Source of the DNA: Escherichia coli
GTDB lineage: Bacteria; Pseudomonadota; Gammaproteobacteria; Enterobacterales; Enterobacteriaceae
DNA: 64,000 nucleotides
Assembly (NCBI RefSeq): GCF_041886205.1
Contig: NZ_CP169029.1
Direction: 5' to 3' (one strand)
The translations under genes and the position numbers were made by a program. The notes below the pieces were generated by a model. That model searched no databases, was not told the origin of the DNA, and was given only the letters and a program-made list of their open reading frames with translations. Position 1 is the stretch's first letter, and the number at the start of each line of letters is the position of its first letter. Below are positions 14,729 through 60,358 of the stretch, in pieces.

Positions 14729-14731
14729 TTT

Positions 14732-14949: not shown

Positions 14950-15011
14950 TCTCTTACTTGATATGGCTTTAGTAGCGGTATCAATATCAGCAGTAAAATA
15001 AATTTCCCGAT

Positions 15012-15088
15012 GCATCCGTAGCTCAGCTGGATAGAGTACTCGGCTACGAACCGAGCGGTCGGAGGTTCGAATCCTCCCGGATGCACCA
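15012..15088 (+). tRNA. tRNA-Arg (anticodon ACG), copy 3
   Basis: Identical 77-nt sequence to copy 1. Confidence 0.9.
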
Positions 15089-15224
15089 TATTCTCCGAAA
15101 TCTTCAGCAATGAAGGTATCGAAGAGGTAGCGGTATTAACCGCAGGCACCAGGGAGGATAACGTTGCGCCAGCAACGGCCCGAAGGGCGAGCCGCAAGGC
15201 GAGTAATCCTCCCGGATGCACCAT
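15089..15224 (+). repeat. ~136-bp repeat unit ending in a duplicate of the tRNA-Arg 3' end (partial tRNA)
   Basis: Sequence ...ttcagcaatgaaggtatcgaagag...ggataacgttgcgccagcaacggcccgaagggcga...aatcctcccggatgcacca; ~90 percent identical to 15364..15500. Confidence 0.7.
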
Positions 15225-15286
15225 CTCTTAATTGATATGGCTTTAGTAGCGGTATCAATATCAGCAGTAGAATAAGTTTTCCCGAT

Positions 15287-15363
15287 GCATCCGTAGCTCA
15301 GCTGGATAGAGTACTCGGCTACGAACCGAGCGGTCGGAGGTTCGAATCCTCCCGGATGCACCA
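15287..15363 (+). tRNA. tRNA-Arg (anticodon ACG), copy 4
   Basis: Identical 77-nt sequence to copy 1. Confidence 0.9.
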
Positions 15364-45844: not shown

Positions 45845-45920
45845 GGCCCTTTAGCTCAGTGGTTAGAGCAGGCGACTCATAATCGCTTGGTCGCTGGTTC
45901 AAGTCCAGCAGGGGCCACCA
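45845..45920 (+). tRNA. ileY: tRNA-Ile2 (anticodon CAU, lysidine-modified type)
   Basis: 76 nt GGCCCTTTAGCTCAGTGGTTAGAGCAGGCGACTCATAATCGCTTGGTCGCTGGTTCAAGTCCAGCAGGGGCCACCA. Confidence 0.85.
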
Positions 45921-46036
45921 AATAAAACAAGGACTTAGACAGGAAGCTGGCTAAGTCCTTTTTGTTTTGTTTCAATCTGGGTGACGTAATGGGTGACGTA
46001 ACTCAACTATAGGTGCCGTAGTCAGGGAGATTTAGC

Positions 46037-46831
46037 ATGAGCTTTAAGGATAAAGTTGAAGAGAAAAAAATGCGCCGTATGGCCCGTCCCCCTGAGTTAA
46101 CGGTAAAGGACTGGATTAGCCTTTATGATCTTCTTCGTTCAGCCAAAGCTCAAGACTCAGAAGCCATGTACGAAGACTTCGCCTCTGTGCTGTTAACTAC
46201 CCTGTCGGTTGAGCATCATCCGGAACTATACCGCCTGGACGGAAACAAACTAAACGCTGTTGCCGATGACCATTTTGCCTGGGACCTACTATCCGCCCCA
46301 ATGAAAGGGAAAATGTCCCCTGAAGAATTGGCGAAGCGCCCGAAGACCCTTTCCCAACTTCTTTGTATCTACGATGAAGATATCAGTAACGACGAGTCAC
46401 TTCGTACACATGGCTTCTTGCGTGACGCTATTGCCCCTATCCTCGATTTCGAGCTTCTGGATAGCATCGAAGATGAGCCTGACTACAAAGAAAAATATTT
46501 CGAGTTGCTAGCAGCGCAAAAGCACTCGACTCCCCCGCCACTAAGAGGGGAAAGTTATGCTATCAAACGAGAAGAGTTGCTGATCACAGCCCTTGCGGTT
46601 ATCTCTCAAAATCAAAGAGACGCTAATAAAAAGGTCGTCCCAACAGTTACTGAACTTCTGAATCAGATAGAAAAACATGCCTCTGCGTTCTGGCCTCACA
46701 GTAAACAACTTCCGATGTCTCGTGAGAATGCTTCTAAAGAGCTAGGCTTCGCCTTACATCTTTTAGAACAACCAAATCAGAATATTGAATTTCTTCGGGA
46801 AGCCAAAAAAGCAAAAAGAAAAAGTGCATAA
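46037..46831 (+). CDS. Hypothetical protein (264 aa), acidic, no recognisable motif
   Basis: ATG with AGGGAG RBS; first gene after the tRNA 3' end, where an integrase is normally found. Confidence 0.55.
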   Translation: MSFKDKVEEKKMRRMARPPELTVKDWISLYDLLRSAKAQDSEAMYEDFASVLLTTLSVEHHPELYRLDGNKLNAVADDHFAWDLLSAPMKGKMSPEELAKRPKTLSQLLCIYDEDISNDESLRTHGFLRDAIAPILDFELLDSIEDEPDYKEKYFELLAAQKHSTPPPLRGESYAIKREELLITALAVISQNQRDANKKVVPTVTELLNQIEKHASAFWPHSKQLPMSRENASKELGFALHLLEQPNQNIEFLREAKKAKRKSA

Positions 46832-46963
46832 AAAGAAATAGTTACAAAAGGTACCCAGTAATCTTCAGGAAGGTACACGAGAAATATACCGTTCAGTTTG
46901 ATTAACTCCGTTCAGTTTCAGCTTTCACCACCAGGAGTTATTCAATTGAAAAATAAACCAACC

Positions 46964-47167
46964 ATGTCTGATAAGGTTGTCGCCCTTCATCAGCCCCAAC
47001 GTCTGATTCGCATTGATACAATGCTTCAGCTCCTCGATTGCAGTCGCACCACCCTCTACCGCTGGGTTAAAGCTGGCATTTTCCCACAGCCGATAATGCA
47101 TGAGGGCCGAACCGTAGGATGGCCAGCCAATACGTATCAATGCTGGCTTGAGCAAAATAACAAGTAA
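46964..47167 (+). CDS. alpA: AlpA-family phage/island transcriptional regulator (MerR-like HTH)
   Basis: IRIDTMLQLLDCSRTTLYRWVKAGIFPQPIMHEGRTVGWPANTYQCWLEQ matches the AlpA pattern; ORF track start 46898 is a TTG-initiated extension, ATG at 46964 more likely. Confidence 0.7.
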   Translation: MSDKVVALHQPQRLIRIDTMLQLLDCSRTTLYRWVKAGIFPQPIMHEGRTVGWPANTYQCWLEQNNK

Positions 47168-47272
47168 TTCTGTTTGTTAAAGGGCTGAAATATTCAGCCC
47201 TTTCTTCATCTGACAATGAAACAAACTGGAACAAAAACGATTATTTTCACCTATTCTGCGACATGCTAAAAC

Positions 47273-48589
47273 ATGAGTAACTCTCTGATTAATCAAGTAA
47301 CAAAGCCCTCACCTGGTCAGGAACTCACCTCGGTATTTAATACTATTACGCCCGATAAGCCTGGCAACCTTGTTGAATATCAGCCAAAGGGAACGTTTGT
47401 TTTCAAAGAAGTGATGTGGTCTGTGCTGCCAGAGAAACGCAACCAGGACACGAAGATCATGAAAAGAATCTTCGGGGCAGTTGACAAGGTATCAGCGATG
47501 TCTCGCTTTCTTGCGGTCAGATATGATTTTCGGCTCCCGACCTACAGTGCGGATAATCGCATAATGGATGATTTCCATAATTTACTTTTCCGCCAGTTAA
47601 GTAAGAACTACCCAAAATCGTTTATCAGCTATCTTTGGGTAAGAGAGCAGGGCTCAGGGGAAGCACAGCATTATCACTATTTGTTGATGCTGGATGGCAA
47701 CTATATCCGTTATCCAAATAAGCTGAATACGATTGTCCGACATTGCTGGGAACAGGTTGCTGGTGGTTCGGTATGGTTCCCGGAAAACGGTTATTACTTT
47801 GTGAGCGAAAATGATCTCAAGACCTATACCGAATTGATGCTGAGAGTTAGCTATCTGGGTAAGCGCCGTACTAAAGAGTCAATTGATAAAGGTATCAAAC
47901 TTTTTGGCTCAGGCATGCGCAAACCGAAACCTGTCGCGCCTTCACGCCAAAAGTCTGCAATAACACCCTGCAAGCCAATCAACCAAAAAGCGGAGACGAA
48001 AACCAACGATCAGGATATGACGTTGAAATCCACCTACTCAGGAATGTTGGACAAATATTTTCTGGGCAAAGCCCGATTACCCGCCGTTCTGCGTAAACGT
48101 TCATCCTATGAACTTTATGACGAAAATAAATGGTGGTGTAATTCACCACGTTGGTCCGGCCATCGTCATAACTACGTGTTAGAGGCTCTGATTACTGGGA
48201 TCAGCCTTTCTGATTACGCACGCAAGTACAAGTTGAATCCAGTACGGGTATATGCAAACTGTCGCCGTGTTGGGGGGCAAAGCCTTAAAATTATTCACTG
48301 GGCATGGCATCGCTATTGCTTCCAGAAAAGCAAATCCACACAGGATGACTACATTAACAATCACCGGCTGAATCATAAAACAGCTAAAAAGCAGTTACGG
48401 CGTAAACCAATGAGCTCTCACTGGAGCCAGCACTTTGATCGATATTATCAAAAGTACTGGCCGAAAGGCTGGACTGTGGCCGACTACTGCCGTGAACACA
48501 ATCTGGTCGCCAGCACTGCCAGACGTTATATAGTCGATTTTCCATTTATAGGCCTGATAGACCCGTTCTTGTTGAAACCATGGTTATAG
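47273..48589 (+). CDS. HUH-motif protein, YagK/YfjJ-like (inovirus Gp2-type replication-initiator-like domain)
   Basis: 438 aa; HUH-like motif AQHYHYLLML; typical neighbour of alpA in CP4-type islands; C-terminal half basic, Trp/His-rich. Confidence 0.5.
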   Translation: MSNSLINQVTKPSPGQELTSVFNTITPDKPGNLVEYQPKGTFVFKEVMWSVLPEKRNQDTKIMKRIFGAVDKVSAMSRFLAVRYDFRLPTYSADNRIMDDFHNLLFRQLSKNYPKSFISYLWVREQGSGEAQHYHYLLMLDGNYIRYPNKLNTIVRHCWEQVAGGSVWFPENGYYFVSENDLKTYTELMLRVSYLGKRRTKESIDKGIKLFGSGMRKPKPVAPSRQKSAITPCKPINQKAETKTNDQDMTLKSTYSGMLDKYFLGKARLPAVLRKRSSYELYDENKWWCNSPRWSGHRHNYVLEALITGISLSDYARKYKLNPVRVYANCRRVGGQSLKIIHWAWHRYCFQKSKSTQDDYINNHRLNHKTAKKQLRRKPMSSHWSQHFDRYYQKYWPKGWTVADYCREHNLVASTARRYIVDFPFIGLIDPFLLKPWL

Positions 48590-49176
48590 AGATGAAAACA
48601 CCATAACAGTGTCACCTGGTATACTTACTGAGCGCGGCGTAACTTAAATATAAACACTTAGCCGCCATCAGTAAGCAGAGCCTTATCAACACTACCAGGG
48701 AATTATTGTGCAGCATGATAGCTGAGGTACCTCTCAATTCTTGACGGACATTAACGCACAGACAACGCTGATTACCTCCTGTAAGCCAATTTATATCTGC
48801 TTGCTGCCACATATCCGCTGGGACTAATCCCCTTTAAACACCTTTTACTTCAAAAAAATGTTTTCCTTCTGATTTATCCCATACGCGAAATAATGAAGAT
48901 TTTATTTTAATTACTAATACTTTCAATGAGATAAGATGCATACATTCTTACACTCATATGATCACTTTTATTTTTCTTTTAATATCAACACGTTATGAAT
49001 TGATCAGCACAAAAGTCACTGCAGGGGGTTAGCTGATTGAACGTTTCAGTTCGTTTCTAATGGCCACATATAGATTCACATCAAGAACTAGTGATCACTG
49101 TAGGGTAACGGTATGCCCAGATCAGCCTGCAGGGTATTCGCTGCGGATGACATGAAAAACAAAGACAGGGGATTGC

Positions 49177-49824
49177 TTACGGGTCAACAAACACACTGAT
49201 GGGGAGGTTAAACCGGCGCGCAAGTGCTCGCTTGTGATCCAGTGTTAATGTGCAATCCCCTTTCAGGATGCGACTCACCAGAGATTTATTACCAATCTCT
49301 TCTTCAAAATCGCTCTGAGTCAGTTTGTGCTGATCCATCAGTACGCGCAGTAAGGCAACACCCGTTGGGACCGCTGCAATACGGCTATTAAATTCAGCAA
49401 ACTCCGGCGCTTCATCTTCATACTGACCGATTTTCGCAACCAGAATATCCACCAGCGGATGGTCCGGCTCGTGTTCAATCAGATACTCGACCAGAGCCAG
49501 TGCATCTTCACTGTGGAAGCGTACGACTGATGTATAGGTAACATTTTGTTCAGTAATATATTTCATGGCTGCCAGTAAGTAGGAAGCTTTGAAAGTCACG
49601 TCCTGATAGTCCTTAGCTAACAAACTCCCATTCTCTTCAAACCGTTCAACAAATGCTGCAACTTCTTTTGGATCGATACGGCTGGTTTTATCTTTTCCGT
49701 TTCGAACAAACAGCTTTTGTTCTTCAGTATATAGCGTAAAAGGTACCTTCCTTGCCCCAGTAGACAGTTCAACTGGTTGGGAAAAAGACTCCAACATTAA
49801 ATGATAGAAATCTTTATAAGTCAT
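49177..49824 (-). CDS. Two-domain protein: unknown N-terminal domain + C-terminal XRE-family HTH
   Basis: 215 aa; C-terminus LTQSDFEEEIGNKSLVSRILKGDCTLTLDHKRALARRFNLPISVF fits HTH_XRE; lies 89 nt downstream of mcrC on the same strand. Confidence 0.6.
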   Translation of the reverse strand: MTYKDFYHLMLESFSQPVELSTGARKVPFTLYTEEQKLFVRNGKDKTSRIDPKEVAAFVERFEENGSLLAKDYQDVTFKASYLLAAMKYITEQNVTYTSVVRFHSEDALALVEYLIEHEPDHPLVDILVAKIGQYEDEAPEFAEFNSRIAAVPTGVALLRVLMDQHKLTQSDFEEEIGNKSLVSRILKGDCTLTLDHKRALARRFNLPISVFVDP

Positions 49825-49913
49825 GATTACTACTCCCTCATCATTTTAGCACTCAAGAAAATACATGATGTGGTTGATTATCCGGTTGATAATTATGAAT
49901 CGTCATCGTCTCA

Positions 49914-51215
49914 TTACGGGGAAAACAGGGGGAAGGACGATTGCCACTCACCTTCCACTAATGCCCCTGATTCAAGCTCGAAGGGCACACACCAGAGCGA
50001 TAAATGTTTATCAAAATGGAACACTGGCAACGGAGTATCAAAAAACTGATGACGTGGATATATCAGCATCATATTCCCCTTCCCTTGCAGATATTTTTGC
50101 CCATAAGCGAACATCTGATACAGATCAGCCTGGTTAATTTCATACTTTCTCAGGCTGTTATCAGCTCGGCTGTCTAACAGCTTCCATTTGGCATCCAGTA
50201 CCATTACCTGCTCACCTGTGATGAGAAAGTCAGGTTTAAGCATGAACCATTGTTGAGGAGCCCTTTCGCCAGCAGGTACATGATCTAACAAATAATGACG
50301 TTTTGCCTGCTCAATAAGCTGATAATCCCTCAGCAAAGATAAAGCCAAACTGCGCCCCACCCAGCATTCATATAATTTTTCCATCGGGAACAACAGCGAG
50401 ATCCCCTGATGCAACCCATGCTGAAAATCTGGATTCAGTTTTTCCAGAATAAGTTGGCACCATGGCTTGATGGCACGATAAGCATAGAGATATTTACCGT
50501 TGCTCCATTGCGCCAGAGGCTGCGTTGTACTGCCACAAATTGGCTCTATACCGTCCAGTTGGTGGCTCAACGTGTTCGCCTGTCGCCAGCTCTGCCCCTC
50601 TTTGGTCATTTTAAGCACCCAATTCAGGGCCGTACGTAACAGACGGTTTTCAACTCGCTGAGGTGAAAACTCCGCATAACGCACATGAAAGCGAGCATCT
50701 CTACCAGGAGGCTGTCTCATTTGTGCCGTGATGTTCAACTGACCACGGATAAAAGCGCTGTGCTCATCCTCAACAAGGTGGTAGTCGAACCGCAACCCTT
50801 TGTGTACCAGTTCGGTAAGATGCCGCAAGAACTCGCTGAAAATCCACTCATGCATCGGCTGGTTGCTCCGCTGCAATGCAGCCTGATTAACTTCTCGGGG
50901 TGTAATCCCCAATGAAGCGCTGAGCATTCGACGTAAAAGCTGACGCAGGGGGATTATCTCAGTTGGCGCTTCAAATGTGGTTTTGGGCAGAATTTCAATT
51001 GACTCGCCATTCGGGGATTGTAGATAACCGACATAGCTTCCCAAACGCAAAAACCGCTTCCCTTCTCGGCTGAGAATTTGAGAGGTACCACTCCACTTTT
51101 GTTGCAATTGCTCAAGCCAGGAAAAGGTTGCCTCAGAGACAATTCCCAAATCCATACTGGCTGTTTGAGAACTATCACAAGTCAGCAGAGCATATTCCCG
51201 GACCTGGATCATCAT
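49914..51215 (-). CDS. mcrC: McrC-family nuclease subunit of a type IV (modification-dependent) restriction system
   Basis: 433 aa; PD-(D/E)xK-like VLDAKWK motif; 4-nt overlap with upstream McrB-like gene. Confidence 0.75.
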   Translation of the reverse strand: MMIQVREYALLTCDSSQTASMDLGIVSEATFSWLEQLQQKWSGTSQILSREGKRFLRLGSYVGYLQSPNGESIEILPKTTFEAPTEIIPLRQLLRRMLSASLGITPREVNQAALQRSNQPMHEWIFSEFLRHLTELVHKGLRFDYHLVEDEHSAFIRGQLNITAQMRQPPGRDARFHVRYAEFSPQRVENRLLRTALNWVLKMTKEGQSWRQANTLSHQLDGIEPICGSTTQPLAQWSNGKYLYAYRAIKPWCQLILEKLNPDFQHGLHQGISLLFPMEKLYECWVGRSLALSLLRDYQLIEQAKRHYLLDHVPAGERAPQQWFMLKPDFLITGEQVMVLDAKWKLLDSRADNSLRKYEINQADLYQMFAYGQKYLQGKGNMMLIYPRHQFFDTPLPVFHFDKHLSLWCVPFELESGALVEGEWQSSFPLFSP

Positions 51216-53194
51216 GTGACAATACCCTGATAAGCTTCTACCGACGCGAAAGCACGTTCATTGATGCGAAAACGCCTGTCAGACAAGCTATCCGCAATAT
51301 CTTTCGGGAATAGTTCAGAGAATGACGGTAATTGTGCTGACTGTTGCAACAGGATAAAACGGTTTTCTTTCGCTTTTACCGAATCATTAAGCACCCAACC
51401 AATGCGCTCATAATCATCAAAGAAATACTCTCTCAGTAATGGAATGATTTTGTTCTGGAAGATGCTGGCCAGACAGGCTTCGCGGTCGGCATTATTTTCT
51501 AATTTTTTTAGTGGCATAAAGTAAGCATGGCCAATCATATGTTCACTATCCAGCAGCGCTTCGATCCGCTGATTAATACGCGTTAACAACGTTTCGACAT
51601 CAACACCGAACGCAGTGACCCCAGCTAACAGCTCCGGTCGTGCGGGCATTTCGGTAAAGCTAAAGCGTCGTCTTAGCGCCAAGTCCATTTGGATGAGTGA
51701 TTTATCCGCAGTATTCATCGTCCCAATGACATAAACATTTTGCGGTACTGAGAATGCTTGCTTTGAATAAGGGAGCATCAGCGACCGCTCATCATCGGCC
51801 CCTTGACGTTTGTCCGGCTCAAGAAGAGTAATAAGCTCACCAAAGATACGTGCTATATTACCGCGGTTGATTTCATCTATTATCAGTACATGTGGTAGAT
51901 CCTGACTATCGGCATTCTCAACAGGAGCCAGCAACTGAGTTAATTTTTCACGATCAATCGTCGTATCCTGCAACTCATATAGGGTCATCTGAGATAGTGA
52001 CTTGATGAAAATTTGCTCTTTAGGAAGGCTTGGGGTGTATGTTCTTAACCATTTAACTGAACGCATTTGATGGTAATACTCACGTTCATCATTGGGTAAA
52101 TAACTATACTCACCTGTAATCTCAGCTATTGCACGGAACTTATGATTTCCATCAGAGACGACGACTAAATCGCCATTCTTAATAATATTTTTAAAGGTAT
52201 TCACGGCAACAGCCATATAATTACTGGTGCCTTCCAATGACTGTTTTTCTGATGCAATCCGAGCTTTGACTGACTCATAGGTAGAGCAGTTACTAAAATC
52301 GATATCTTCTCCCCAACCTAGCAGGACATAATTGTTTGCCAGGCAGTCCTCATACACATCCTCTTCTCCGCCCATGGTATTACCCAGAGACATCTTCCAG
52401 ATCCGCCGACCTTTGAGTGAGATAGATTGTGTTGCACTCCCCTGAACTTTAACCCTGGCATTCAGGCACAGCTGTTTAAAAATACCATCCACAACTTCGT
52501 AGCGAAGCGCGCCCGATTTTTCATCAGTAGTTGCGCGAATCCCTTCGATAAAATCTTCATAGGAGAAGCTCTGATGGAAGGTGGTAAACATAATGCGCTG
52601 CTTTTCTACCAACGCCTTATAGCGTTCATTTACCAACTCCCGTAAGTCATTGCCATGATGTTCGAGCGTAGCCTGTTGGTACCACGTATTATCGGCAATT
52701 TTGACCGCCATTTCGGTGGTACTGTAGGTTTTACCCGTGCCGGGTGGTCCAAAGAGAATTTGGTTTAAGGGATACATTAACGATTGTTCCTTATTTTCGT
52801 TGTCTCTTTTTAGTCTGGGTTGGGTAGTTATAGATGGTTTACCACCCAGCAAAGCCACCAGCGTCTGCAACGCTTCAACGGATTCAACATCAGCCGCGAA
52901 ACCATATTGGGATGTACCGTTATCTTTCGGATAACGGCGGTAGCTGGTGCTTTTTACTTTTTCCCAAAGGCAGTGGATACCCGAAATGCGATCAATTTCC
53001 GCTTTTACGGCAAGGGTTTCAGGTGCAAGAACCAATGGACTCTTTTTAACCACGCCGTCCCGGCTGCGTTTGACATACAGATACTTTCCATTCCCGAGCG
53101 CATGTTCGGATGCATAGCTTGGCTCGAATTTTCCCGCCTCAAGCCGGTAACCCAATTCATTCAACGCCTGGTATATCTCGAAAGAATTCAGCAT
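51212..53194 (-). CDS. mcrB: McrB-family AAA+ GTPase with atypical N-terminal domain and ~190-aa insertion between Walker A and Walker B
   Basis: 660 aa; Walker A GPPGTGKT, McrB-type Walker B LIIDEINRGNIARIFGEL, FHQSFSYEDFIEG; inserted segment RRIWKMSLG...GDLVVVSDGNHKFRAIAEITGEY...RSVKWL. Confidence 0.75.
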   Translation of the reverse strand: MLNSFEIYQALNELGYRLEAGKFEPSYASEHALGNGKYLYVKRSRDGVVKKSPLVLAPETLAVKAEIDRISGIHCLWEKVKSTSYRRYPKDNGTSQYGFAADVESVEALQTLVALLGGKPSITTQPRLKRDNENKEQSLMYPLNQILFGPPGTGKTYSTTEMAVKIADNTWYQQATLEHHGNDLRELVNERYKALVEKQRIMFTTFHQSFSYEDFIEGIRATTDEKSGALRYEVVDGIFKQLCLNARVKVQGSATQSISLKGRRIWKMSLGNTMGGEEDVYEDCLANNYVLLGWGEDIDFSNCSTYESVKARIASEKQSLEGTSNYMAVAVNTFKNIIKNGDLVVVSDGNHKFRAIAEITGEYSYLPNDEREYYHQMRSVKWLRTYTPSLPKEQIFIKSLSQMTLYELQDTTIDREKLTQLLAPVENADSQDLPHVLIIDEINRGNIARIFGELITLLEPDKRQGADDERSLMLPYSKQAFSVPQNVYVIGTMNTADKSLIQMDLALRRRFSFTEMPARPELLAGVTAFGVDVETLLTRINQRIEALLDSEHMIGHAYFMPLKKLENNADREACLASIFQNKIIPLLREYFFDDYERIGWVLNDSVKAKENRFILLQQSAQLPSFSELFPKDIADSLSDRRFRINERAFASVEAYQGIVT

Positions 53195-53223
53195 TTCCTA
53201 CACCACTCCTTGATGAAAAAGCG

Positions 53224-56200
53224 TTAAGCCCCTTTCAACATATCAAACACCACGCGGGCAAAGCCCTTCGCCAGTTCAGGATTAGAGAGGTATTGCACCA
53301 TCATCTCCTGCTGGGCGTCGTTGCTGTCCATCACGGCATCATCAATGGCTTTCGGGAAATCGCCCAGCATCGCCTGCTCACGCGTATTGTTCGCAATCTG
53401 GGTCATCACCGCCTGGTTTTCTGACAGCTTGTCGCGCACCGCGAAGGCATAATTGATCATGTCTTTATCGGTCAGATTATCGGTGACGAACAGCTCGTTC
53501 AGGCGCGCCAGGATATTCGACAGAAACTCTTCTTTCTTGTCTTTCGGCTTCGCCGTACCGACATCATTCCCCGGTGTGATTTTGTATTCTGCCGCATCTT
53601 CCTGCAGCTTCAGATGCTGTTCGTGGAGTTTCGACAGGCGATAATGGCTCATCTCCACGTTGCTTAAATCAATCTCATCTTCTTCGATACGCTGTTCATG
53701 CAGTAACGGGCGCAGGTGGCGGGCAAATAGGCTCAGTTTTTCCAGGTTCTTGTCGTCGTAATCGACGATTTGCGACATAAACTCGTAAAAGCGGACAAAG
53801 CTGCCGAGGTCTTTCTTGAAGATATCCAGCTTACTTTTTTCTTTCTCGCACTCTTTGAAGCTGTTTTCCGCATTGGTGATCAGCACAACATCGCCGGTCT
53901 TCTTAGTACGTTCGAAGATCGCTTTGGCCTTTACATACTCGTCAATCGCCGAGGTGTAACGCTGTTTCCAGCGCTGCACCGCTGGTTTGCAGATATTACT
54001 AATGGCCGCGTTGGATTTGTTTTTGCTGAAGAACGCTTCGCAGAACTGCTCCACTTCGTTCCACAGGAAAATACCGCTGGTACGCAGCTTTTCAAAGAGC
54101 TCAAAGACCTGTTGCGGGTCGCTGACATCCGTCAGTTCTGCTGTCTGGTAGTACGGCTGGAAAGCCCCCAAAATCTCGTCGGGCTCGTTGTAGAAATCGA
54201 GCACAAAGGTGCCTGACTGCGCCTTCCCCGGATAGGTACGGTTCAGGCGTGACAGCGTCTGTACACACTCCACGCCGCCAAGCTTTTTATCCACATACAT
54301 GGCACACAGCTTGGGTTGGTCAAAACCGGTCTGGAATTTGTTGGCCACCAGCATCACCTGGTAGTCGTCGGTATCAAACGCTTTGCGCATATCCCGGCCT
54401 TTCAGGCCTGGGTTCATATTGATTTCGGTGAACTTCTGGTTAAGCAATGCAAGGCTATTGTGGTCATCTTCATGGAACTCAACTTCACCGGAGAACGCCA
54501 CCATTGCGCTGATCTTGTCGTATTTTTGCTCGGCGATGTATTTATCGAATGCCAGCTTATAGCGCACCGCTGCTTTACGCGAACTGGTCACCACCATCGC
54601 TTTCGCCTGACCAGCCAGTAAGTGCATCACATGCTTGCGGAAGTGCTCAACAATCACCTTCACTTTCTGCGACACGTTATGATCGTGCAGCGATACCCAC
54701 TGGTTGAGTTTGATCTTGGCTTTCTTGCTGTCTACTTCCCGGTCAGGATCGTCCAGCTTTTGCAGCAGCTTGTACGCCACCTTGTAGTTGGTGTAGTTCT
54801 TCAGCACATCAAGTATGAAGCCTTCTTCGATGGCCTGACGCATTGAGTAAACGTGAAACGCTTCCGGTTTGTTCGTTTTCGACGCCGGTTCCTGCGGATT
54901 AGGACGACGGCCAAACAGCTCCAGCGTTTTGGCTTTCGGCGTGGCGGTAAAGGCGTAATAGTTGAGATTGTTGCTGCCTTTACGTGCGGCGACGGTGGCA
55001 TCCAGAATATCTTCTGAAGACATCTCCACATCGTCATCCGCTTCTTCGGTCATAAGCACTTCTTTCAGCTGACGCGCCGTAGAACCACTCTGCGAGGAGT
55101 GCGCTTCATCGGCAATCACCGCGTATTTGCGCTGCTTGAGGCTGACGCTGTTTTCAATCGCCTTCAGGACAAACGGGAACGTCTGGATAGTGACGATAAT
55201 GATCGGCTGCGAGTTTTCCAGCGCGCTGGCCAGCTTCTCCGATTTAGAACCGTCGCCTTCTTTGTTATTGATCCGCCCGACCACGCCATCCTGATGCTCA
55301 AACTGATAGATGGTGTCCTGCAGCTGATCGTCAAGCACGGTGCGGTCCGTCACCACAATCACCGAATGGAACTGCTTCTCGCCATTTTCATCATACAGGC
55401 GGGAAAGCTGATGGGCCGTCCAGGCGATAGAGTTAGATTTGCCCGACCCGGCACTGTGCTGAATCAGGTATTTATTGCCGGTGCCTTCCACTGTGGCGGC
55501 GGTGATCAGTTTATTCACCACATCCCACTGGTGATAGCGTGGGAAAATCAGGCTCTCACTTTTGTACTTCAGGCCAATGGCATCTTCTTTTTCTACGATT
55601 TGCAGATGCACGAAGCTCGCGAGAATTTTCAGCAGATTGTCCGGCAGTAGCACCTCATTCCACAGGTAGCTGGTGGCGTAGTCGTTGGCATCTTCCGGGA
55701 TATCGTTCCCCGCACCGCCGTCATGGGTGCCTTTGTTAAACGGCAGGAAGAAGGTTTTATCGCCCTCGAGTTTGGTCGCCATAAACACTTCGTACTGGCT
55801 GACGGCAAAGTGCACCAGCGCGCCGCGTTTAAAGGTCAGCAGCGGCTCGGGTTTATTAGTGCCTGGGTCCTTTGGCAAACGCGTTTTCTTATATTGCGTA
55901 ATGGCGTTTTGCACCGTCTGCTTAAATTCAGACTTCAGTTCCAGGGTCGCTATCGGCAGGCCATTAACGAACAATACCAGGTCGATACGCCATTTCTTCG
56001 CTTTTATACCGGTATCTTCAAATGCGGCGTTCGATGCATGCGGGCTGTAAACCAGCTCCGGCACGATGCGGCAGATATTCTGTTTATAACGAGCCAGTGT
56101 TTCCGGATTGAGGTTATGTTCCGGCTTAAACTGGCACAGAGAAAAACGCGCGTTATGGCTTTTGATACCATGTCGCAGCACGCCTAAAGTGCCATAGGTG

Positions 56201-56472
56201 CGCGAAAGCATATCAGTAGCGTTGATGTCCGCTTTTTTCAGCTGCGCCACCAGCGCATCGAGGAAATGACGTTCGGTATCGGTAGGGTAAATTTTGGCAA
56301 ACTTCTCCCACTCCTGCGGCTGTGTGGTCTGCACAAAGGTCAGCACATCCTGGGAATACAGCGCACGTTCGCGATCATAGCCGTCAGTTTTGCCACAAAT
56401 CCAGCCTTTTGCTTTCATCTGAGCAATCATTTCGTTCTGGAAGATAAGCTCTTTGGTGCTGTCCATGCTCAT
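53224..56472 (-). CDS. hsdR: Type I restriction enzyme R subunit (HsdR)
   Basis: 1082 aa; helicase motif I SAGSGKS, DEAH-like ADEAHSSQ; 4-nt overlap with hsdS. Confidence 0.9.
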   Translation of the reverse strand: MSMDSTKELIFQNEMIAQMKAKGWICGKTDGYDRERALYSQDVLTFVQTTQPQEWEKFAKIYPTDTERHFLDALVAQLKKADINATDMLSRTYGTLGVLRHGIKSHNARFSLCQFKPEHNLNPETLARYKQNICRIVPELVYSPHASNAAFEDTGIKAKKWRIDLVLFVNGLPIATLELKSEFKQTVQNAITQYKKTRLPKDPGTNKPEPLLTFKRGALVHFAVSQYEVFMATKLEGDKTFFLPFNKGTHDGGAGNDIPEDANDYATSYLWNEVLLPDNLLKILASFVHLQIVEKEDAIGLKYKSESLIFPRYHQWDVVNKLITAATVEGTGNKYLIQHSAGSGKSNSIAWTAHQLSRLYDENGEKQFHSVIVVTDRTVLDDQLQDTIYQFEHQDGVVGRINNKEGDGSKSEKLASALENSQPIIIVTIQTFPFVLKAIENSVSLKQRKYAVIADEAHSSQSGSTARQLKEVLMTEEADDDVEMSSEDILDATVAARKGSNNLNYYAFTATPKAKTLELFGRRPNPQEPASKTNKPEAFHVYSMRQAIEEGFILDVLKNYTNYKVAYKLLQKLDDPDREVDSKKAKIKLNQWVSLHDHNVSQKVKVIVEHFRKHVMHLLAGQAKAMVVTSSRKAAVRYKLAFDKYIAEQKYDKISAMVAFSGEVEFHEDDHNSLALLNQKFTEINMNPGLKGRDMRKAFDTDDYQVMLVANKFQTGFDQPKLCAMYVDKKLGGVECVQTLSRLNRTYPGKAQSGTFVLDFYNEPDEILGAFQPYYQTAELTDVSDPQQVFELFEKLRTSGIFLWNEVEQFCEAFFSKNKSNAAISNICKPAVQRWKQRYTSAIDEYVKAKAIFERTKKTGDVVLITNAENSFKECEKEKSKLDIFKKDLGSFVRFYEFMSQIVDYDDKNLEKLSLFARHLRPLLHEQRIEEDEIDLSNVEMSHYRLSKLHEQHLKLQEDAAEYKITPGNDVGTAKPKDKKEEFLSNILARLNELFVTDNLTDKDMINYAFAVRDKLSENQAVMTQIANNTREQAMLGDFPKAIDDAVMDSNDAQQEMMVQYLSNPELAKGFARVVFDMLKGA

Positions 56473-57791
56473 GCGGTGGCCTCCTGTGGCTCCTCAGCGT
56501 CCTGCGTGTCAGGTGCTACCCAATCACGGACGTCGATTTTTCCGGTGACGGCAGCGGAGATCAGGGCGGTACGGCGTTCCTGGAGAATTTGAATAGTCTG
56601 CTCGACCATTTCTTGAGTTATTTGTATTTTGTCTATCTTTTCCAGTACTTTTTTTGCCAGATAAACCTGATCATCAAAAGGAATATCTCTCACGTAAAAA
56701 TTACTAATTTGCTCTGGACTAATATGCGGCACACTAACACCAGTCAAGTCTATTTCAGCATATTCTCTGAATTCATTGCTACTAAGACATAATTTAATAA
56801 ATGGTTGATATGATTTTATATTTGACCTTATCCTTGCAACTCGCTGCAATAAGAGGCAAGGTAAATCCTGCTCTTTAATTTCTGAAACCCTTGCTCCAGA
56901 ACTAATCCATGGTCTATCCATACCAAAAACAATATCGCCAGCCGCTAATAAATAATCACTGAGCCTATCGAGTGTTCTAACATCCCAATATACAACGTCA
57001 TCCCATTTTATGCTGTCAACACCGACATTAACCCCTCGTAAAAGAGGAATACTATTATCAGGTGAAAATTTAAATTTTGTACTTGAAAATGGATAGCCAG
57101 TTTGAATACTAACTAAGTTTTTTAGCTTAGTTTTCCTCTCATTACTACGTATACTGGCGACACTTGAGATCACGGCCTGACGCTTTTCTTTAAGTAGTTC
57201 AATTAGTTGCTGTTGCTTCTCGATCAGGTTATCGATTTTTGCAGTTTCGTGATCGAGGAAACTGTATATTTTTTCCTGCTCAGTCTTGTCTGGAAGCAGC
57301 AGCTCAATATTTCTAAATTCATCAGGATCCAGATCCCATTGATTGACTCGTATCCCCTTGGAGCGGCTCAGATATTGAGTAACGTAAATCGGGTTGCGAA
57401 GTAAATAATGCACATACCTTGGATGTGCCAGTTCAAAAAGGACATTGTTGGGTTTATAGACAAAATATGCCGGACTAACTATCCCTTCATACTCTGAAAT
57501 TGCGATTGAACCTTGCCAGGCTTTCATCTTATTCATAACCAAATCATTTGGCTCAACCAATTGATAGGGGGACAAATCCTCTGAAGGCTTATTATTGTTA
57601 TCATCTCTGCTTGATTTTGGTATAACACCATAGTCCCGATATACGGAAAGCAATTCTTTCTCTGTATATCCGGTCCGCTTGATCCTGGAAAACAATCTGG
57701 ATATGGATACGGTTTTCCAGTGATTCGGAATCTCCCCCAACCACTCAACCCCAGAATCCTTATACTCCGGATACATCTTATACTTCGCCAT
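56469..57791 (-). CDS. hsdS: Type I restriction-modification specificity subunit (HsdS)
   Basis: 440 aa with two TRD-like halves separated by a central conserved region; start overlaps hsdM stop by 1 nt. Confidence 0.85.
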   Translation of the reverse strand: MAKYKMYPEYKDSGVEWLGEIPNHWKTVSISRLFSRIKRTGYTEKELLSVYRDYGVIPKSSRDDNNNKPSEDLSPYQLVEPNDLVMNKMKAWQGSIAISEYEGIVSPAYFVYKPNNVLFELAHPRYVHYLLRNPIYVTQYLSRSKGIRVNQWDLDPDEFRNIELLLPDKTEQEKIYSFLDHETAKIDNLIEKQQQLIELLKEKRQAVISSVASIRSNERKTKLKNLVSIQTGYPFSSTKFKFSPDNSIPLLRGVNVGVDSIKWDDVVYWDVRTLDRLSDYLLAAGDIVFGMDRPWISSGARVSEIKEQDLPCLLLQRVARIRSNIKSYQPFIKLCLSSNEFREYAEIDLTGVSVPHISPEQISNFYVRDIPFDDQVYLAKKVLEKIDKIQITQEMVEQTIQILQERRTALISAAVTGKIDVRDWVAPDTQDAEEPQEATA

Positions 57792-60175
57792 CAGGAATGT
57801 ACCTCCCGCAGCAGCTTCATAATCTCGGTACTGACTGCATCCAGATCGGCATCAATCTCTTCCAGTGGGCGCGGCGGCTGATAGACGTAGAAATGGCGGT
57901 TAAACGGAATCTCATAACCGACAATTCCCACCTCACCATCTTTCGCATCACGCTTATCGGCGTTGATCCACGCATCATTTACATGCGGCAGCACTTCTGC
58001 TTTGAAGTAGTTTTCGATCAGGTCGCTGGTCGACATTGCCGGGTTCAGCGGCACGTTTTCGTTATCGCGCAGCTCGCCGTCCTGTTCGAACTCAACAACC
58101 TTGCCTTTGTACTCAAACGCACCGTACAGCGGCTGAGCGGCTTCTTTCAGCACCTTCTTCACCACCGGCTCGGCATCCGGGTTTTTCGTGGTAATGGCAT
58201 CGATAAACTGCTTGTTCTCTTTCGCATCCAGCTTCACGCCAGCCGTTTTGATGGCCCCTTTCAGGGTCAGTTGGAACTGATTGAAGTCATTGCTCACCCG
58301 CGTTTTGCCACCCGCCTGCGCACCCAATACCACCTGAATCTGCTGTGCTTTTTCCATGAACTCGCGCTGTGCCAGCCACAATTTGCTGTCGAGCAGGTCT
58401 TTAATCTGCTTCTCTTTCAGCTCTGCAAATTCGGCTTTGATGATGGCGCGCGCTTCGGCTTCCAGTTCGGAGAAATCACCATAGCTGTCCTCCCTCCACT
58501 GGGATGCGAACTCTTCATACAGGCGTTCCATTGGCGCGTTAAACGGCTTCGGCGCAAAGCGCAGAGTCGCAATCGCTTCATCAGTCACCTGTGCAGATAA
58601 CCGCAGCGGGCGCTCAATGGTCAGGCGGCGATAGCCAAAGTCGGTGCTGTTAAAGATTTTGCTGGCGAAGGTTTTCGGAGCTTCGGTTTTGGCCATGGCA
58701 GGCTGACGGCCACGGTTGGATTTTTGCTCGGCGGCTTTTTCCAGACCCAGTTCTTCCAGGGCTGTGACATCCACCACCTGAAAATCACCGAAGGTCTGCG
58801 TGATCAGTTTGATATCGTCTTCGCCCATCAGGTTGCGCTTGGAACCCAGCGATTTACGCATTTTGCCGCACAGGTTAGTGCCATCAATCAGCTGTACTTT
58901 TCCTTTACGCTCAGGCGCTTTCTTGTTGGAGAGGATCCAGACGTAGGTGGCAATACCGGTGTTGTAGAACATATCTGTTGGCAGCGCGACGATGCCTTCC
59001 AGCAAATCGGCTTCCAGAATGTAGCGACGGATTTCGCTCTCACCGCTGCCCGCACCACCAGTAAACAGTGGAGAGCCGTTAAGGATAATCCCGATACGTC
59101 CGCCGTTGCTCACGGTGCCATCCACATTGTGGTTGTCGCGCATTTTGCTGATCAGGTGCATCAGGAACAGCAGCGAGCCGTCGGAAACACGCGGCAGGCC
59201 CGGGCCAAAGCGACCGTTAAAGCCCTTTTGCGTATGTTCGTCGTTAATCTCGCCCTCAATCTTCTTCCAGTCCACGCCAAACGGTGGGTTAGACAGCATG
59301 TAGTCGAATTGATCCAGCGGTAACTGGTCGTTAGAGAGGGTGTTACCCAGCTTAATGCGGCTGACGTCCTGACCTTTGATCAGCATGTCGGCTTTACAGA
59401 TAGCGTAGGATTCCGGATTCAGCTCCTGACCAAAAGCGCGCATCACCGCGTTAGGGTTCAGCTCGTGCACATATTCCATGCCCGAAGAGAGGAAACCACC
59501 CGTCCCGGCCGTCGGGTCATAAATGGTGCGGATGATACCAGGCTGCGTCAGGGCTTCATCATCTTCCATAAACACCAGTGAAGTGGTCAGACGCACGATA
59601 TCGCGTGGGGTGAAGTGCTCACCGGCGGTCTCGTTAGATCTTTCCGCGAAACGACGGATAAGTTCTTCAAACACCAGGCCCATCTCATAGTTGGAAATCG
59701 CTTTCGGGCTGAGATCGGTGGTGGCGAATTTCTTCACTACTTTGAACAGCAAGTTGGCGTCTTCCAGCAGGCCGACGAACTCACTGAATTTAAAATGCTC
59801 GAAGATTTCACGCGCATCGGGCGAGAACGACTGGACGTAATTCTCCAGGTTGGCTTTGATGTCGTTCTGCCCCATCTTGCCAAGATCCATCTTCGAGGTG
59901 TTGAAGAAGGAAAGCTCGCTGGCGCGCAGCAGAAACTTCTCTTTGGCATCTTCCGGCAGCGTGCTGGTTTTTAATTCATCATATTTCGCCACCACCGCAT
60001 CTTTGGTCTCCGCCAACACACACTCAAGACGGCGCAGCAGCGTAAAGGGCAGGATCACGCGCCCGTACTGAGACTGTTTGAAATCACCGCGCAGTAGATC
60101 GGCCACCGACCATATAAACGCAGCCGTTTGAGAAAAGTTAGTGTTAGTCATAAGCGACACCCAAAAAAATGGCAT
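57791..60175 (-). CDS. hsdM: Type I restriction-modification N6-adenine DNA methyltransferase (HsdM), long form with ~300-aa C-terminal extension
   Basis: 794 aa; AdoMet motif DPTAGTGGF and catalytic NPPF; alternative start at ATG 60151 (MTNTNF) because a TATAAT lies immediately upstream of 60175. Confidence 0.85.
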
Positions 60176-60358
60176 AAAAAAGTGGCAAGATTATACCCCA
60201 TCAGGCATAAGATGCTTTGACTTATAACGCATCAGTTTGAAACACAATGGTGATGGGGGTCACAGGGGCTGACATGTACTTTTAAGATTAAAAAGCATTA
60301 ACATCTACTTTTGAAGAAAACAGAAAAAAACAATCACAAACCTTTAAAAACAAAAACT

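What the first reader, a model, noticed from the sequence alone, without database searches (positions are those of the whole stretch)
45845..48589. Island arm next to ileY lacks an integrase: hypothetical 264-aa gene, AlpA, HUH/YagK-like gene
tRNA-Ile2 is a classic integration site, and AlpA plus an inovirus-Gp2/YagK-like gene are typical of CP4-type integrative elements, yet the gene directly abutting the tRNA is an unrecognisable acidic 264-aa protein, not a tyrosine recombinase. Either the integrase lies at the far end beyond the window, the element is a decayed remnant, or the 264-aa protein is an unrecognised mobility or defence factor.
Basis: partly seen in the sequence, partly recalled or inferred. 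Interest (0 to 1): 0.4.

Follow-up and report, generated by a model that had tools for sequence, protein, structure and literature searches.

The report
Defence island with distal integrase
The three genes beside the ileY tRNA are one end of an intact, roughly 20-kb mobile island carrying anti-phage genes; its integrase sits at the opposite end, about 430 bases past the edge of the window, so the missing integrase is an effect of where the window ends.

Summary
The window has tRNA-Ile2 (CAU) at 45845-45920, then a 264-aa ORF, an AlpA-family gene and a YagK/YfjJ (HUH) gene, and no integrase.

A contig 100% identical to window 46469-64000 (L012) continues it. It shows the end of a Drt1a reverse transcriptase, a 58-aa ORF and a P4-type tyrosine integrase (435 aa, minus strand, window-equivalent 64429-65736). 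An exact 47-bp repeat of the ileY 3' part follows at 65930-65976, then the sequence that directly follows ileY in K-12. The island is therefore a precise 20,056-bp insertion.

Copies at least 99.95% identical over the compared 17.5 kb sit at ileX or ileY in E. coli and, by protein names, in Citrobacter and Salmonella.

The 264-aa protein is not a recombinase and matches no defence model. It belongs to a very small family (about 25 clusters among 5.8 billion proteins). Wherever neighbouring genes could be read, the order was tRNA, this gene, AlpA, YagK, variable defence cargo, with an inward-reading integrase at the far end where the contig reached it.

In the excised circle the arm and the integrase would flank attP. 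The likely roles are excision control (AlpA), replication initiation (YagK) and DNA-binding regulation (264-aa protein); all three are inferred.

This is a new member of a known kind, of modest interest.

The parts
45845..45920 (+). tRNA-Ile2 (anticodon CAU; ileY locus), the intact tRNA at the attL end of the island. It is a hybrid: an ileY-type 5' half (T6) joined to an ileX-type 3' half (G67).
   Evidence: ARAGORN and Rfam. The upstream flank is K-12 ygaQ/ileY at 96.5% identity. The base-6/67 comparison with K-12 ileY and with ileX-site copies is.
45874..45920 (+). attL copy of the 47-bp core repeat, running from the anticodon loop to the CCA end: GACTCATAATCGCTTGGTCGCTGGTTCAAGTCCAGCAGGGGCCACCA.
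   Evidence: An exact second copy lies at window-equivalent 65930-65976 in L012 and in 7 further relatives; L021 has a single mismatch. There is only one copy inside the window.
45921..45968 (+). Island-borne stem-loop followed by a T-run directly after the tRNA. It replaces the host terminator of the tRNA gene.
   Evidence: Inverted repeat I1. Homologous hairpins with compensating changes occur in L022 and PSS-08-1. The host's own hairpin sits after attR in ileX-site copies.
45978..46001 (+). Two tandem 12-nt repeats, TGGGTGACGTAA. These are candidate arm-type binding sites (P' arm) for the integrase.
   Evidence: Repeat D3. Three further copies, one inverted, lie upstream of the integrase gene at window-equivalent about 65758-65805. 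thrW-type relatives carry a different repeat (GCGTACTT x2, same 12-nt spacing) at both ends.
46037..46831 (+). 264-aa protein 'X', a conserved backbone gene of unknown function. The model shows an N-terminal winged-helix-like unit, an acidic linker, a helical C-domain with the invariant motif G-E-x-Y-A-x-x-R-E, and a basic tail.
46889..46918 (.). Direct repeat CCGTTCAGTTT x2 (19-nt spacing) in the spacer between X and alpA. It is a candidate operator.
   Evidence: Repeat D5. AAGGTA(C/T) elements in the same spacer are shared with thrW-type relatives. The function is inferred only.
46946..47167 (+). AlpA-family helix-turn-helix protein (73 aa from TTG 46946, or 67 aa from ATG 46964). It is the predicted excision activator or directionality factor.
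   Evidence: Pfam PF05930 at E 8.7e-8, above the cut-off. PHROG 66, 'excisionase and transcriptional regulator'. 28% identical to K-12 AlpA.
47179..47203 (+). Perfect 11-bp stem-loop followed by TTTCTTC after alpA, terminator-like. An equivalent hairpin follows alpA in the relatives examined.
   Evidence: Inverted repeat I7; equivalent hairpins in L022, L024, L028, L030 and L032.
47273..48589 (+). YagK/YfjJ ('inovirus Gp2-type') HUH protein, 438 aa. Residues about 76-213 are the HUH domain, with H133-Y134-H135 and R191/Y194/K197/K201. The C-terminal ~150 aa hold HTH-like repeats (three by eye). It is the predicted replication initiator of the excised circle.
   Evidence: Pfam. The catalytic motifs are invariant in an alignment with K-12 YfjJ and YagK and with small-plasmid proteins. 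Distant homologues are the only annotated gene on a 2.6-kb plasmid. The C-terminus equals a separate 237-aa ORF in thrW islands. Residues 384-420 hit PHROG terminase N-termini.
48590..49176 (.). 587-nt non-coding spacer between the backbone arm and the cargo. It contains a 15-bp-arm hairpin at 48624-48675, which is a candidate nick site or origin, or simply a terminator.
   Evidence: No Rfam family reaches significance. The function was not tested.
49177..49824 (-). 215-aa protein with a C-terminal HTH_3 domain, at the start of the cargo.
   Evidence: Pfam HTH_3 at E 8e-4, and PADLOC PD-Lambda-2_B at E 9e-7.
49914..53194 (-). McrC (49914-51215) and a long McrB-like AAA_5 GTPase (51212-53194); defence cargo.
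   Evidence: Pfam McrBC at E 7e-88 and AAA_5; NCBIfam McrB at E 6e-35.
53224..60151 (-). Type I restriction-modification cargo: hsdR (53224-56472), hsdS (56469-57791) and hsdM (57791-60151).
   Evidence: ORFs; Pfam families on identical products; PGAP names in H1.
60359..64000 (+). 5' 1214 codons of a Drt1a (DRT type 1, reverse transcriptase-nitrilase) gene, cut by the window end. The island continues beyond the window with a 58-aa ORF, the integrase and attR.
   Evidence: Open frame to the window end. The 1258-aa L012 copy hits PADLOC Drt1a with E = 0.

Best explanation
**What it is.** The arm is the tRNA-proximal (attL) end of an intact site-specific integrative island of 20,056 bp. The island targets the 3' part of tRNA-Ile2 genes (ileX or ileY).

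**Where the integrase is.** The island's P4-type tyrosine integrase lies at the other (attR) end and reads inward. Its start is about 190 nt from a displaced 47-bp copy of the tRNA 3' part. That places it roughly 430 nt past the window end.

**Why the arm looks integrase-free.** Integration opens the element at attP. In the excised circle the order would be integrase (leftward), attP, then 264-aa gene, alpA and yagK (rightward). The arm and the integrase are therefore one contiguous backbone module, and the apparent absence of an integrase follows from where the linear map is cut.

**Shown:**
- The boundaries and the empty site in K-12.
- The integrase domains.
- Arm-type repeats on both sides of the core.
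- Conserved synteny across diverged islands.
- Defence cargo (McrBC, type I R-M, Drt1a).

**Inferred from family knowledge:**
- The integrase, bound to the TGGGTGACGTAA repeats, carries out integration and excision.
- AlpA activates integrase expression or acts as a directionality factor, as in CP4-57.
- The HUH protein YagK nicks an origin and replicates the excised circle. Its distant homologues are the sole annotated gene of 2.6-kb plasmids.
- No transfer or packaging genes are present, so spread between cells needs a helper (phage or conjugative element).

**Least certain:** the 264-aa protein is a DNA-binding regulator or accessory factor of this backbone. The support is a winged-helix-like N-domain and a basic tail. 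I give about 0.3 to 'transcriptional or excision regulator' specifically.
For: - **Continuation of the window.** L012 is 100% identical over 17,532 nt up to the window end. It continues with the RT end, a 58-aa ORF and Int435 (Arm-DNA-bind_3 59.8 bits, Phage_int_M 27.5, Phage_integrase 55.7, all at or above cut-off). The tRNA core sequence recurs once, at the attR end, and nowhere inside the island.
- **Empty site.** The sequence after attR is the K-12 sequence that directly follows ileY (92.8% over 1864 aligned nt).
- **Arm-type repeats.** They flank both ends of the island. A different repeat with the same 12-nt spacing occupies both ends of the thrW-type relative L028, a 9,926-bp island with its own 47-bp direct repeat.
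- **Same island elsewhere.** It occurs at ileX (downstream of rpoD-mug) and at ileY, with 99.95-100% identity over the compared 17.5 kb. The exact 264-aa and integrase proteins are named 'MULTISPECIES Enterobacteriaceae', and near-identical cluster members are named from Citrobacter, Salmonella and Buttiauxella.
- **X is a backbone gene.** Homologues down to about 20% identity keep the order tRNA, X, AlpA, YagK, with unrelated cargo. The cargo is SACS/NOV plus UvrD; OLD-TOPRIM ATPase plus UvrD helicase (Gabija-like, my reading of the Pfam domains); GmrSD; or type I R-M. An inward-reading far-end integrase is seen in L024 and L028.
- **HUH motifs.** They are invariant, and YagK homologues occur on small plasmids.
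- **Published class with the same split.** Integrase at one end, inovirus Gp2-like plus AlpA at the other, defence cargo and helper-phage transfer (PMC12595487).
- **K-12 precedent.** CP4-6 ends with intF at its far end.
Against: - The integrase and attR are not in the window itself. They are inferred from an identical contig and 8 relatives, not read from the source genome.
- No experiment here shows excision, a circular form or replication.
- No canonical sigma-70 promoter was found in front of the 264-aa gene, so its expression is unexplained.
- YagK could act as a relaxase for mobilisation rather than a replication initiator; nothing here separates the two.
- In the integrase, the first residue of the usual H-x-x-R box reads R (RDIRRT). 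That is tolerated in some tyrosine recombinases (my own knowledge) but was not tested.
Confidence: 0.85

Rival explanations
1. The arm is a decayed remnant of an island that has lost its integrase and can no longer move.
For: This is the state of the only complete E. coli genome that shares the arm (GDSC2227PM). Its identity to the window stops 270 nt past window position 60100, just before an IS1, and the RT, integrase and attR end is absent. The 215-aa gene there is a pseudogene. L020 has no called integrase.
Against: The window runs on into the RT gene exactly as the intact islands do. A 100% identical contig carries an intact integrase and a perfect attR. All backbone ORFs are full length. 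Near-identical copies in several genera and at two tRNA loci argue for recent mobility.
Confidence: 0.04
2. The 264-aa protein is itself an unrecognised recombinase or mobility enzyme that takes the place of an integrase next to the tRNA.
For: It is always the first gene after the tRNA, and no known family explains it.
Against: A canonical integrase with matching arm-type repeats is present in the same repeat-bounded unit. The protein shows no recombinase family or fold similarity and no catalytic-type conserved residues beyond a helical G-E-x-Y-A-x-x-R-E motif. The predicted structure is mostly helical, with a winged-helix-like unit.
Confidence: 0.03
3. The 264-aa protein is cargo: a new anti-phage defence or anti-restriction factor, for example a partly acidic DNA mimic expressed on entry.
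For: It sits in a defence island. It has an acidic central segment, belongs to no known family, and is absent from phage and plasmid collections.
Against: There is no PADLOC hit. The overall pI is 5.8, not strongly acidic. It keeps a fixed position and orientation upstream of alpA-yagK in islands whose cargo is entirely different and whose tRNA target differs. It has diverged about as much as the integrase and YagK: 22% identity against 25% and 34%. That is the behaviour of a backbone gene, not of swappable cargo.
Confidence: 0.1
4. The arm and the far-end integrase belong to two different elements lying side by side (a composite or tandem array), so the arm's own integrase is really missing.
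For: Tandem arrays do occur at these tRNAs. 186/P2-like prophages or other integrase-bearing islands lie directly upstream of the 264-aa gene in L008 and L039-L042.
Against: In those arrays each unit is separated by a partial tRNA copy. No such copy exists between the arm and Int435. The same backbone pairing recurs inside a single 9.9-kb repeat-bounded unit at thrW. The same arm-type repeat is found next to the 264-aa gene and next to the integrase.
Confidence: 0.04

Closest known systems
Pseudomonas tmRNA islands I23/I44/I55 (Jumbo phage-mediated transduction of genomic islands, PNAS 2025, PMC12595487)
   Same: A tyrosine integrase sits at one end, and AlpA plus an inovirus Gp2-like (YagK/YfjJ) protein at the other. 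The islands are flanked by direct repeats at a tRNA-like gene, carry variable anti-phage cargo in between, and have no genes for autonomous transfer.
   Different: The polarity is mirrored: there the integrase is next to the intact tmRNA, here the AlpA/YagK arm is. The target is tmRNA with a 14-bp repeat, against tRNA-Ile2 with a 47-bp repeat here. Those islands are larger, going by their names (about 23-55 kb), and have other frequent genes (YqaJ, RadC). No counterpart of the 264-aa protein is reported. Transfer by a helper phage was shown there and is untested here.
E. coli K-12 cryptic prophage CP4-6 (thrW; intF, yagK-yagN)
   Same: It is tRNA-targeted, has its integrase at the far end from the intact tRNA, and encodes a YagK HUH protein. 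thrW-type relatives of the present island occupy the same proBA-thrW-LysR site.
   Different: In CP4-6, yagK lies on the integrase side and on the same strand. There is no AlpA in that segment and no homologue of the 264-aa protein: hhalign against YagN and YagM gives probability below 1%. It is 34 kb, IS-ridden and decayed. IntF is only 20% identical to Int435.
E. coli K-12 cryptic prophage CP4-57 (ssrA; intA, yfjH, alpA, yfjI, yfjJ)
   Same: It combines a P4-type integrase, AlpA and YfjJ (HUH). AlpA-driven excision is the textbook model for this module. Int435 is 24% identical to IntA, the window's AlpA is 28% identical to K-12 AlpA, and the HUH domain is 31% identical to YfjJ.
   Different: The integrase is next to ssrA, not distal. 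A DUF3987 protein (YfjI) lies between alpA and yfjJ. The slot before alpA holds the unrelated, opposite-strand yfjH. K-12 YfjJ and YagK are 208-aa HUH domains without the C-terminal HTH-like repeats.
P4-like satellites and Gram-negative PICIs
   Same: They share a P4-family integrase with an arm-binding domain, an AlpA-type regulator, tRNA targeting, small size and defence cargo hotspots (PMC9122126, title and abstract as listed).
   Different: The island has no primase-helicase (alpha, pri-rep), no psu/delta/sid, and no capsid-size or packaging-redirection genes among its 12 ORFs. The putative replication protein is an HUH enzyme instead.
Small cryptic plasmids with an 'inovirus-type Gp2' protein (e.g. 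Psychrobacter pA41H1, 2,626 bp)
   Same: They encode a homologous HUH domain with the same invariant R-x-D, W-x-x-E, H-Y-H and R-x-x-Y-x-x-K-x-x-x-K motifs.
   Different: They are free replicons of 2.6-6 kb with no integrase. Identity is only 24-31%, and they lack the C-terminal HTH-like repeats.

Membership tests
Site-specific integrative genomic island at a tRNA gene | Insertion at the 3' part of a tRNA gene, leaving the gene intact | tested here: met
   An intact tRNA-Ile2 lies at 45845-45920, and island DNA starts at 45921.
Site-specific integrative genomic island at a tRNA gene | Direct repeat of the tRNA 3' part at the far boundary (attL/attR) | tested here: met
   There is an exact 47-bp repeat at window-equivalent 65930-65976 in the identical contig L012 and in 7 further relatives; L021 has one mismatch. 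The repeat lies outside the window itself.
Site-specific integrative genomic island at a tRNA gene | An empty site exists in a related genome | tested here: met
   In K-12, ileY is directly followed by the sequence found after attR (92.8% over 1864 aligned nt).
Site-specific integrative genomic island at a tRNA gene | Encodes its own tyrosine integrase | tested here: met
   The 435-aa protein has Arm-DNA-bind_3, Phage_int_M and Phage_integrase, all at or above Pfam cut-offs. It lies beyond the window end, on L012.
Site-specific integrative genomic island at a tRNA gene | Excises to a circular form | not testable with these tools
   This needs junction PCR or read-level data.
CP4-type / intY-AlpA-Gp2-like defence islands | AlpA-family regulator present | tested here: met
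   PF05930 scores 32.4 bits against a cut-off of 21.
CP4-type / intY-AlpA-Gp2-like defence islands | YagK/YfjJ (inovirus Gp2-type) protein present | tested here: met
   PF11726 scores 57.7 bits against a cut-off of 25.8.
CP4-type / intY-AlpA-Gp2-like defence islands | Variable anti-phage cargo and no conjugation or virion genes | tested here: met
   The cargo is McrBC, type I R-M and Drt1a. All 12 ORFs of the unit are accounted for.
CP4-type / intY-AlpA-Gp2-like defence islands | Transfer depends on a helper phage | not testable with these tools
   This was shown only for I55 in Pseudomonas (PMC12595487).
HUH endonuclease / rolling-circle Rep superfamily (for the 438-aa protein) | HUH metal-binding motif and catalytic tyrosine motif conserved | tested here: met
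   H133-Y134-H135 and R191/Y194/K197/K201 are invariant across island, K-12 and plasmid homologues.
HUH endonuclease / rolling-circle Rep superfamily (for the 438-aa protein) | Site-specific nicking at an origin | not testable with these tools
   Only candidate hairpins were noted (48624-48675).
Tyrosine or serine recombinase (for the 264-aa protein) | Recombinase catalytic domain by sequence or fold | tested here: not met
Known anti-phage defence proteins (for the 264-aa protein) | Match to a PADLOC model | tested here: not met
   0 families match at E up to 0.01.
P4-like satellite / PICI | Primase-type replication gene and helper-exploitation genes (psu/delta/sid, capsid-size or packaging redirection) | tested here: not met
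   No such family appears among the island ORFs. The only related feature is a short HTH similarity of the YagK C-terminus to terminase N-termini.

The most novel reading that the evidence does not exclude
The four-gene backbone (integrase, 264-aa protein, AlpA, and YagK with its C-terminal HTH-like repeats) may define a family of compact enterobacterial elements that has not been described. These would excise, replicate as HUH-driven circles and be carried between genera by a helper. The helper could be one of the 186/P2-like phages that use the same tRNA core and are repeatedly found in tandem with the island. The 264-aa winged-helix-like protein would be a new kind of switch or helper sensor controlling that cycle.
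Probability: 0.15. Interest if true: 0.55.

Novelty: new member of a known kind. Interest (0 to 1): 0.3.

Why it matters
- **For the scan.** An island arm beside a tRNA that lacks an integrase is not in itself an anomaly. Elements at ileX/ileY and thrW place the integrase next to the displaced tRNA fragment, so a window edge can hide it.
- **For the biology.** This is a clean, apparently active carrier of three defence systems (McrBC-like, type I R-M, DRT type 1). Copies are nearly identical over the compared 17.5 kb, and the exact proteins are named from Citrobacter, Salmonella and E. coli. It can use either tRNA-Ile2 gene.
- **Open question.** The island exposes a small, uncharacterised backbone gene family. 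That family and the HUH protein are the obvious handles for asking how integrase-only defence islands are maintained and spread.

Tried and rejected
**Searches with the 264-aa protein that found nothing**
- Pfam, apart from a sub-threshold PSII_Pbs27 hit.
- PHROGs, NCBIfam, PADLOC and PDB sequences by profile.
- Phage and plasmid collections by tblastn.

**Structure**
- The first AlphaFold model, from 14 close sequences, was unusable (pLDDT 48.9).
- A 23-sequence alignment that included 20%-identity members gave pLDDT 80.3.
- The afdb50 library was not available.

**Homology to K-12 genes in comparable slots**
- YagN, YagM and YfjH were all rejected by hhalign, with probability below 1%. A BLAST hint to YagN (E 0.08) did not hold.

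**Ideas considered and dropped**
- Transcription of the 264-aa gene from a promoter across attP, active only after excision. The island-borne terminator hairpin would still lie between attP and the gene, so this was not pursued.
- The simple sigma-70 scan finds no promoter in the 116-nt spacer.
- Rfam finds only the tRNA.
- An internal att copy that would split the island in two: none found.

**Limits of the comparisons**
- The complete-genome E. coli collection could not define the far end. The single matching genome has that end replaced beyond an IS1.
- The PDB sequence search with the 438-aa protein found nothing.


Full report
**1. The observation**

The window has a tRNA with a CAT anticodon at 45845-45920(+). 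It differs by one base from K-12 ileY, which is annotated tRNA-Ile(CAU), and its upstream flank is the K-12 ygaQ/ileY region at 96.5% identity.

Three same-strand genes follow:
- A 264-aa ORF at 46037-46831.
- An AlpA-family gene ending at 47167. Its likely start is TTG 46946, which has an AGGAG 8 nt upstream; ATG 46964 is the alternative.
- A 438-aa YagK/YfjJ protein at 47273-48589.

No recombinase gene lies anywhere between the tRNA and the window end. The rest of that stretch holds:
- A 215-aa HTH protein.
- McrC and a long McrB-like GTPase.
- hsdR, hsdS and hsdM.
- An open frame from 60359 that runs off the window.

G+C is 0.453 for 45921-64000, against 0.499 for the rest of the window. 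The 264-aa protein is only mildly acidic overall (pI 5.8).

**2. Where the integrase is**

Exact-protein look-ups returned many contigs that carry the same arm. One of them, L012, is 100% identical to the window over 17,532 nt, from 46469 to the last base, and it continues the sequence. In window-equivalent coordinates it shows:

| Feature | Position | Evidence |
|---|---|---|
| Open frame from 60359 = 1258-aa Drt1a reverse transcriptase-nitrilase (PADLOC E = 0) | ends 64135 | |
| 58-aa ORF | 64248-64424 | |
| 435-aa integrase with Arm-DNA-bind_3, Phage_int_M and Phage_integrase, all at or above Pfam cut-offs | 64429-65736(-) | |
| Exact 47-bp copy of window 45874-45920 (anticodon loop to CCA), same orientation | 65930-65976 | |

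The sequence after that repeat is the K-12 sequence that directly follows ileY, the ypjC/ypjB side (92.8% over 1864 aligned nt). K-12 is therefore the empty site, and the island is a precise 20,056-bp insertion. The tRNA core sequence does not recur inside the island.

**3. Anatomy of the ends**

Right after the tRNA, the island supplies its own stem-loop and T-run (45921-45968). Two tandem TGGGTGACGTAA repeats follow at 45978-46001. Three further copies of that repeat, one inverted, lie between the integrase start and attR.

A thrW-targeting relative (L028) has the same design. It is 9,926 bp long with its own 47-bp repeat, but carries a different repeat (GCGTACTT twice, same 12-nt spacing) at both ends. 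These look like arm-type sites for an integrase that has an arm-binding domain; that is an inference.

Integration opens the element at attP. In the excised circle the integrase would therefore be transcribed leftward, and the 264-aa gene, alpA and yagK rightward, from the attP region. The arm and the integrase form one backbone module, split only in the integrated map.

This layout has precedents:
- K-12 CP4-6 ends with intF at its far end.
- 186/P2-like prophages in L008 and L001 have their integrase at the end away from the intact tRNA or ssrA gene.
- Phage 186 is listed as using both ileY and ileX (PMC3448106).

**4. Mobility**

The same island, 99.95-100% identical over the compared 17.5 kb, sits at ileY (glaH/ygaQ side) or at ileX (downstream of rpoD-mug) in different assemblies. 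The exact 264-aa and integrase proteins are named 'MULTISPECIES Enterobacteriaceae'. Near-identical cluster members are named from Citrobacter species, Salmonella Javiana and Buttiauxella.

Only 1 of 5426 complete E. coli genomes has the arm. In that genome the match to the window stops just before an IS1, and the RT, integrase and attR end is missing.

The island carries an ileX-type 3' half (G67). At ileX sites this restores a C6-G67 pair. In the window it makes a hybrid tRNA with U6.G67, where K-12 ileY has U6-A67. In L021 the displaced attR copy keeps the host A.

These tRNAs are crowded sites. IMG/VR hits and L008 show tandem arrays in which another element lies between the intact tRNA and the 264-aa gene. 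That element is a 186/P2-like prophage or another integrase-bearing island. In each case it leaves a partial tRNA copy, the terminator and the arm repeats directly upstream of the 264-aa gene. E. coli PSS-08-1 keeps an approximately 80-nt scar of a related island end fused to a CP4-57-like ssrA island.

**5. The 264-aa protein**

It has no match in Pfam, PHROGs, NCBIfam, PADLOC or PDB sequences, and none in the phage or plasmid collections.

The family is very small: 17-25 clusters among 5.8 billion proteins, and 12 representatives among 1.84 billion.

Wherever neighbouring genes could be read, members down to about 20% identity are followed by AlpA and YagK, and a tRNA lies directly upstream where the contig reaches it. 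The cargo after them is unrelated from island to island:
- SACS/NOV plus UvrD.
- An OLD-TOPRIM ATPase plus a UvrD helicase (Gabija-like by my reading of the Pfam domains).
- GmrSD.
- Type I R-M.

L024 and L028 also show an inward-reading integrase at the far end. Divergence between the ileX/Y and thrW subfamilies is similar for this protein (22% identity), the integrase (25%) and YagK (34%). That pattern marks it as a backbone gene, not cargo.

My reading is that it is a DNA-binding regulator or accessory factor of the backbone. This is an inference with low confidence.

**6. The other two arm genes**

AlpA passes the Pfam cut-off and matches the PHROG family 'excisionase and transcriptional regulator'. 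A terminator-like hairpin follows it here and in all the relatives examined.

The 438-aa protein keeps the HUH motif (H133-Y134-H135) and the R191/Y194/K197/K201 tyrosine motif. These are invariant in an alignment with K-12 YfjJ and YagK and with plasmid homologues.

Distant homologues are the only annotated gene of the 2,626-bp plasmid pA41H1, and they occur on 5-6-kb Klebsiella plasmids. This is the best available argument that the family initiates replication.

Its C-terminal ~150 residues contain HTH-like repeats (three by eye). In thrW islands these lie partly on a separate 237-aa ORF. Residues 384-420 resemble terminase N-termini.

**7. Comparison with what is known**

The closest described class is the Pseudomonas tmRNA islands I23/I44/I55. 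They have an integrase at one end, an inovirus Gp2-like protein plus AlpA at the other, and defence cargo between. They lack transfer genes, and jumbo-phage transduction was shown for I55 (PMC12595487).

The present island differs in several ways:
- Its polarity is mirrored.
- It targets tRNA-Ile2 with a 47-bp core.
- It has the extra 264-aa backbone gene.
- It has an extended YagK.

It also shares parts with K-12 CP4-57 and CP4-6. It lacks what defines P4-like satellites or PICIs.

**8. Verdict**

The missing integrase is an effect of the window edge plus the element's polarity. What remains unknown is the function of a small backbone gene family and how the island moves between cells.

Noticed in passing
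window 60359-64000 (+): This is the 5' 1214 codons of a Drt1a (DRT type 1, reverse transcriptase-nitrilase) defence gene, running off the window end. The full 1258-aa copy on L012 hits PADLOC Drt1a with E = 0.
   Followed up: partly
window 45845-45920; K-12 L035; L021: The tRNA at attL is a hybrid of an ileY 5' half (T6) and an island-supplied ileX-type 3' half (G67). It gives a U6.G67 wobble where K-12 ileY has U6-A67. In L021 the displaced attR copy keeps the host A. This suggests ileX is the element's native target and ileY a secondary site.
   Followed up: partly
window 51212-53194 (-) and 49914-51215 (-): The McrB-like AAA_5 protein is 660 aa. It has a ~400-aa N-terminal region (DUF8426 on the identical product) in which residues 265-408 hit PADLOC PDC-S02 models. 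It is paired with a canonical McrC.
   Followed up: no
window 49177-49824 (-): A 215-aa protein with a C-terminal HTH_3 domain and weak similarity to PD-Lambda-2_B (E 9e-7) lies between the backbone arm and McrC. It is reduced to a pseudogene in E. coli GDSC2227PM.
   Followed up: no
window 48137-48589 (C-terminus of the 438-aa protein); L024 10394-11107: The YagK-like protein ends in HTH-like repeats (W..HF.RYY..YWP...V..YC) that match no Pfam family. In thrW-type islands the homologous repeats are on a separate 237-aa ORF. Residues 384-420 resemble PHROG terminase N-termini (E 3.7e-7).
   Followed up: partly
L008 8731-10001; L039-L042: Tandem arrays are seen at ileX/ileY and thrW. A 186/P2-like prophage or another integrase-bearing island lies between the intact tRNA and this island, each unit ending in a partial tRNA copy. 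Phage 186 uses the same stretch of the tRNA as its core.
   Followed up: partly
L038 2791-2975 (E. coli PSS-08-1 ileY): ileY is followed by an ~80-nt scar of a related island end. It has a covarying terminator hairpin and GGGTCAGGTAA x2 in place of GGGTGACGTAA x2. The scar is fused directly to a CP4-57-like island that fills the whole ileY-ssrA interval.
   Followed up: partly
L001 18368-24895 (E. coli GDSC2227PM): Where the match to the window stops, an IS1 is followed by ParB-ParB-serine recombinase and a 409-aa integrase. A P2-like prophage at ssrA comes next. This is probably the ssrA-side island abutting the truncated ileY island.
   Followed up: no
window 43156-45285 (-): A 709-aa open frame corresponds to ygaQ (alpha-amylase C-terminal domain family). 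ygaQ is a pseudogene in K-12, while a 750-aa product is called at this position in L003.
   Followed up: no
window 14636-15363 (+): This is a cluster of five tRNA genes, tRNA-Ser(GCT) followed by four tRNA-Arg(ACG). It corresponds to the K-12 serV-argVYZQ cluster and places the window in the recA-ileY region of an E. coli-like chromosome. That placement is from my own knowledge of the K-12 map.
   Followed up: no
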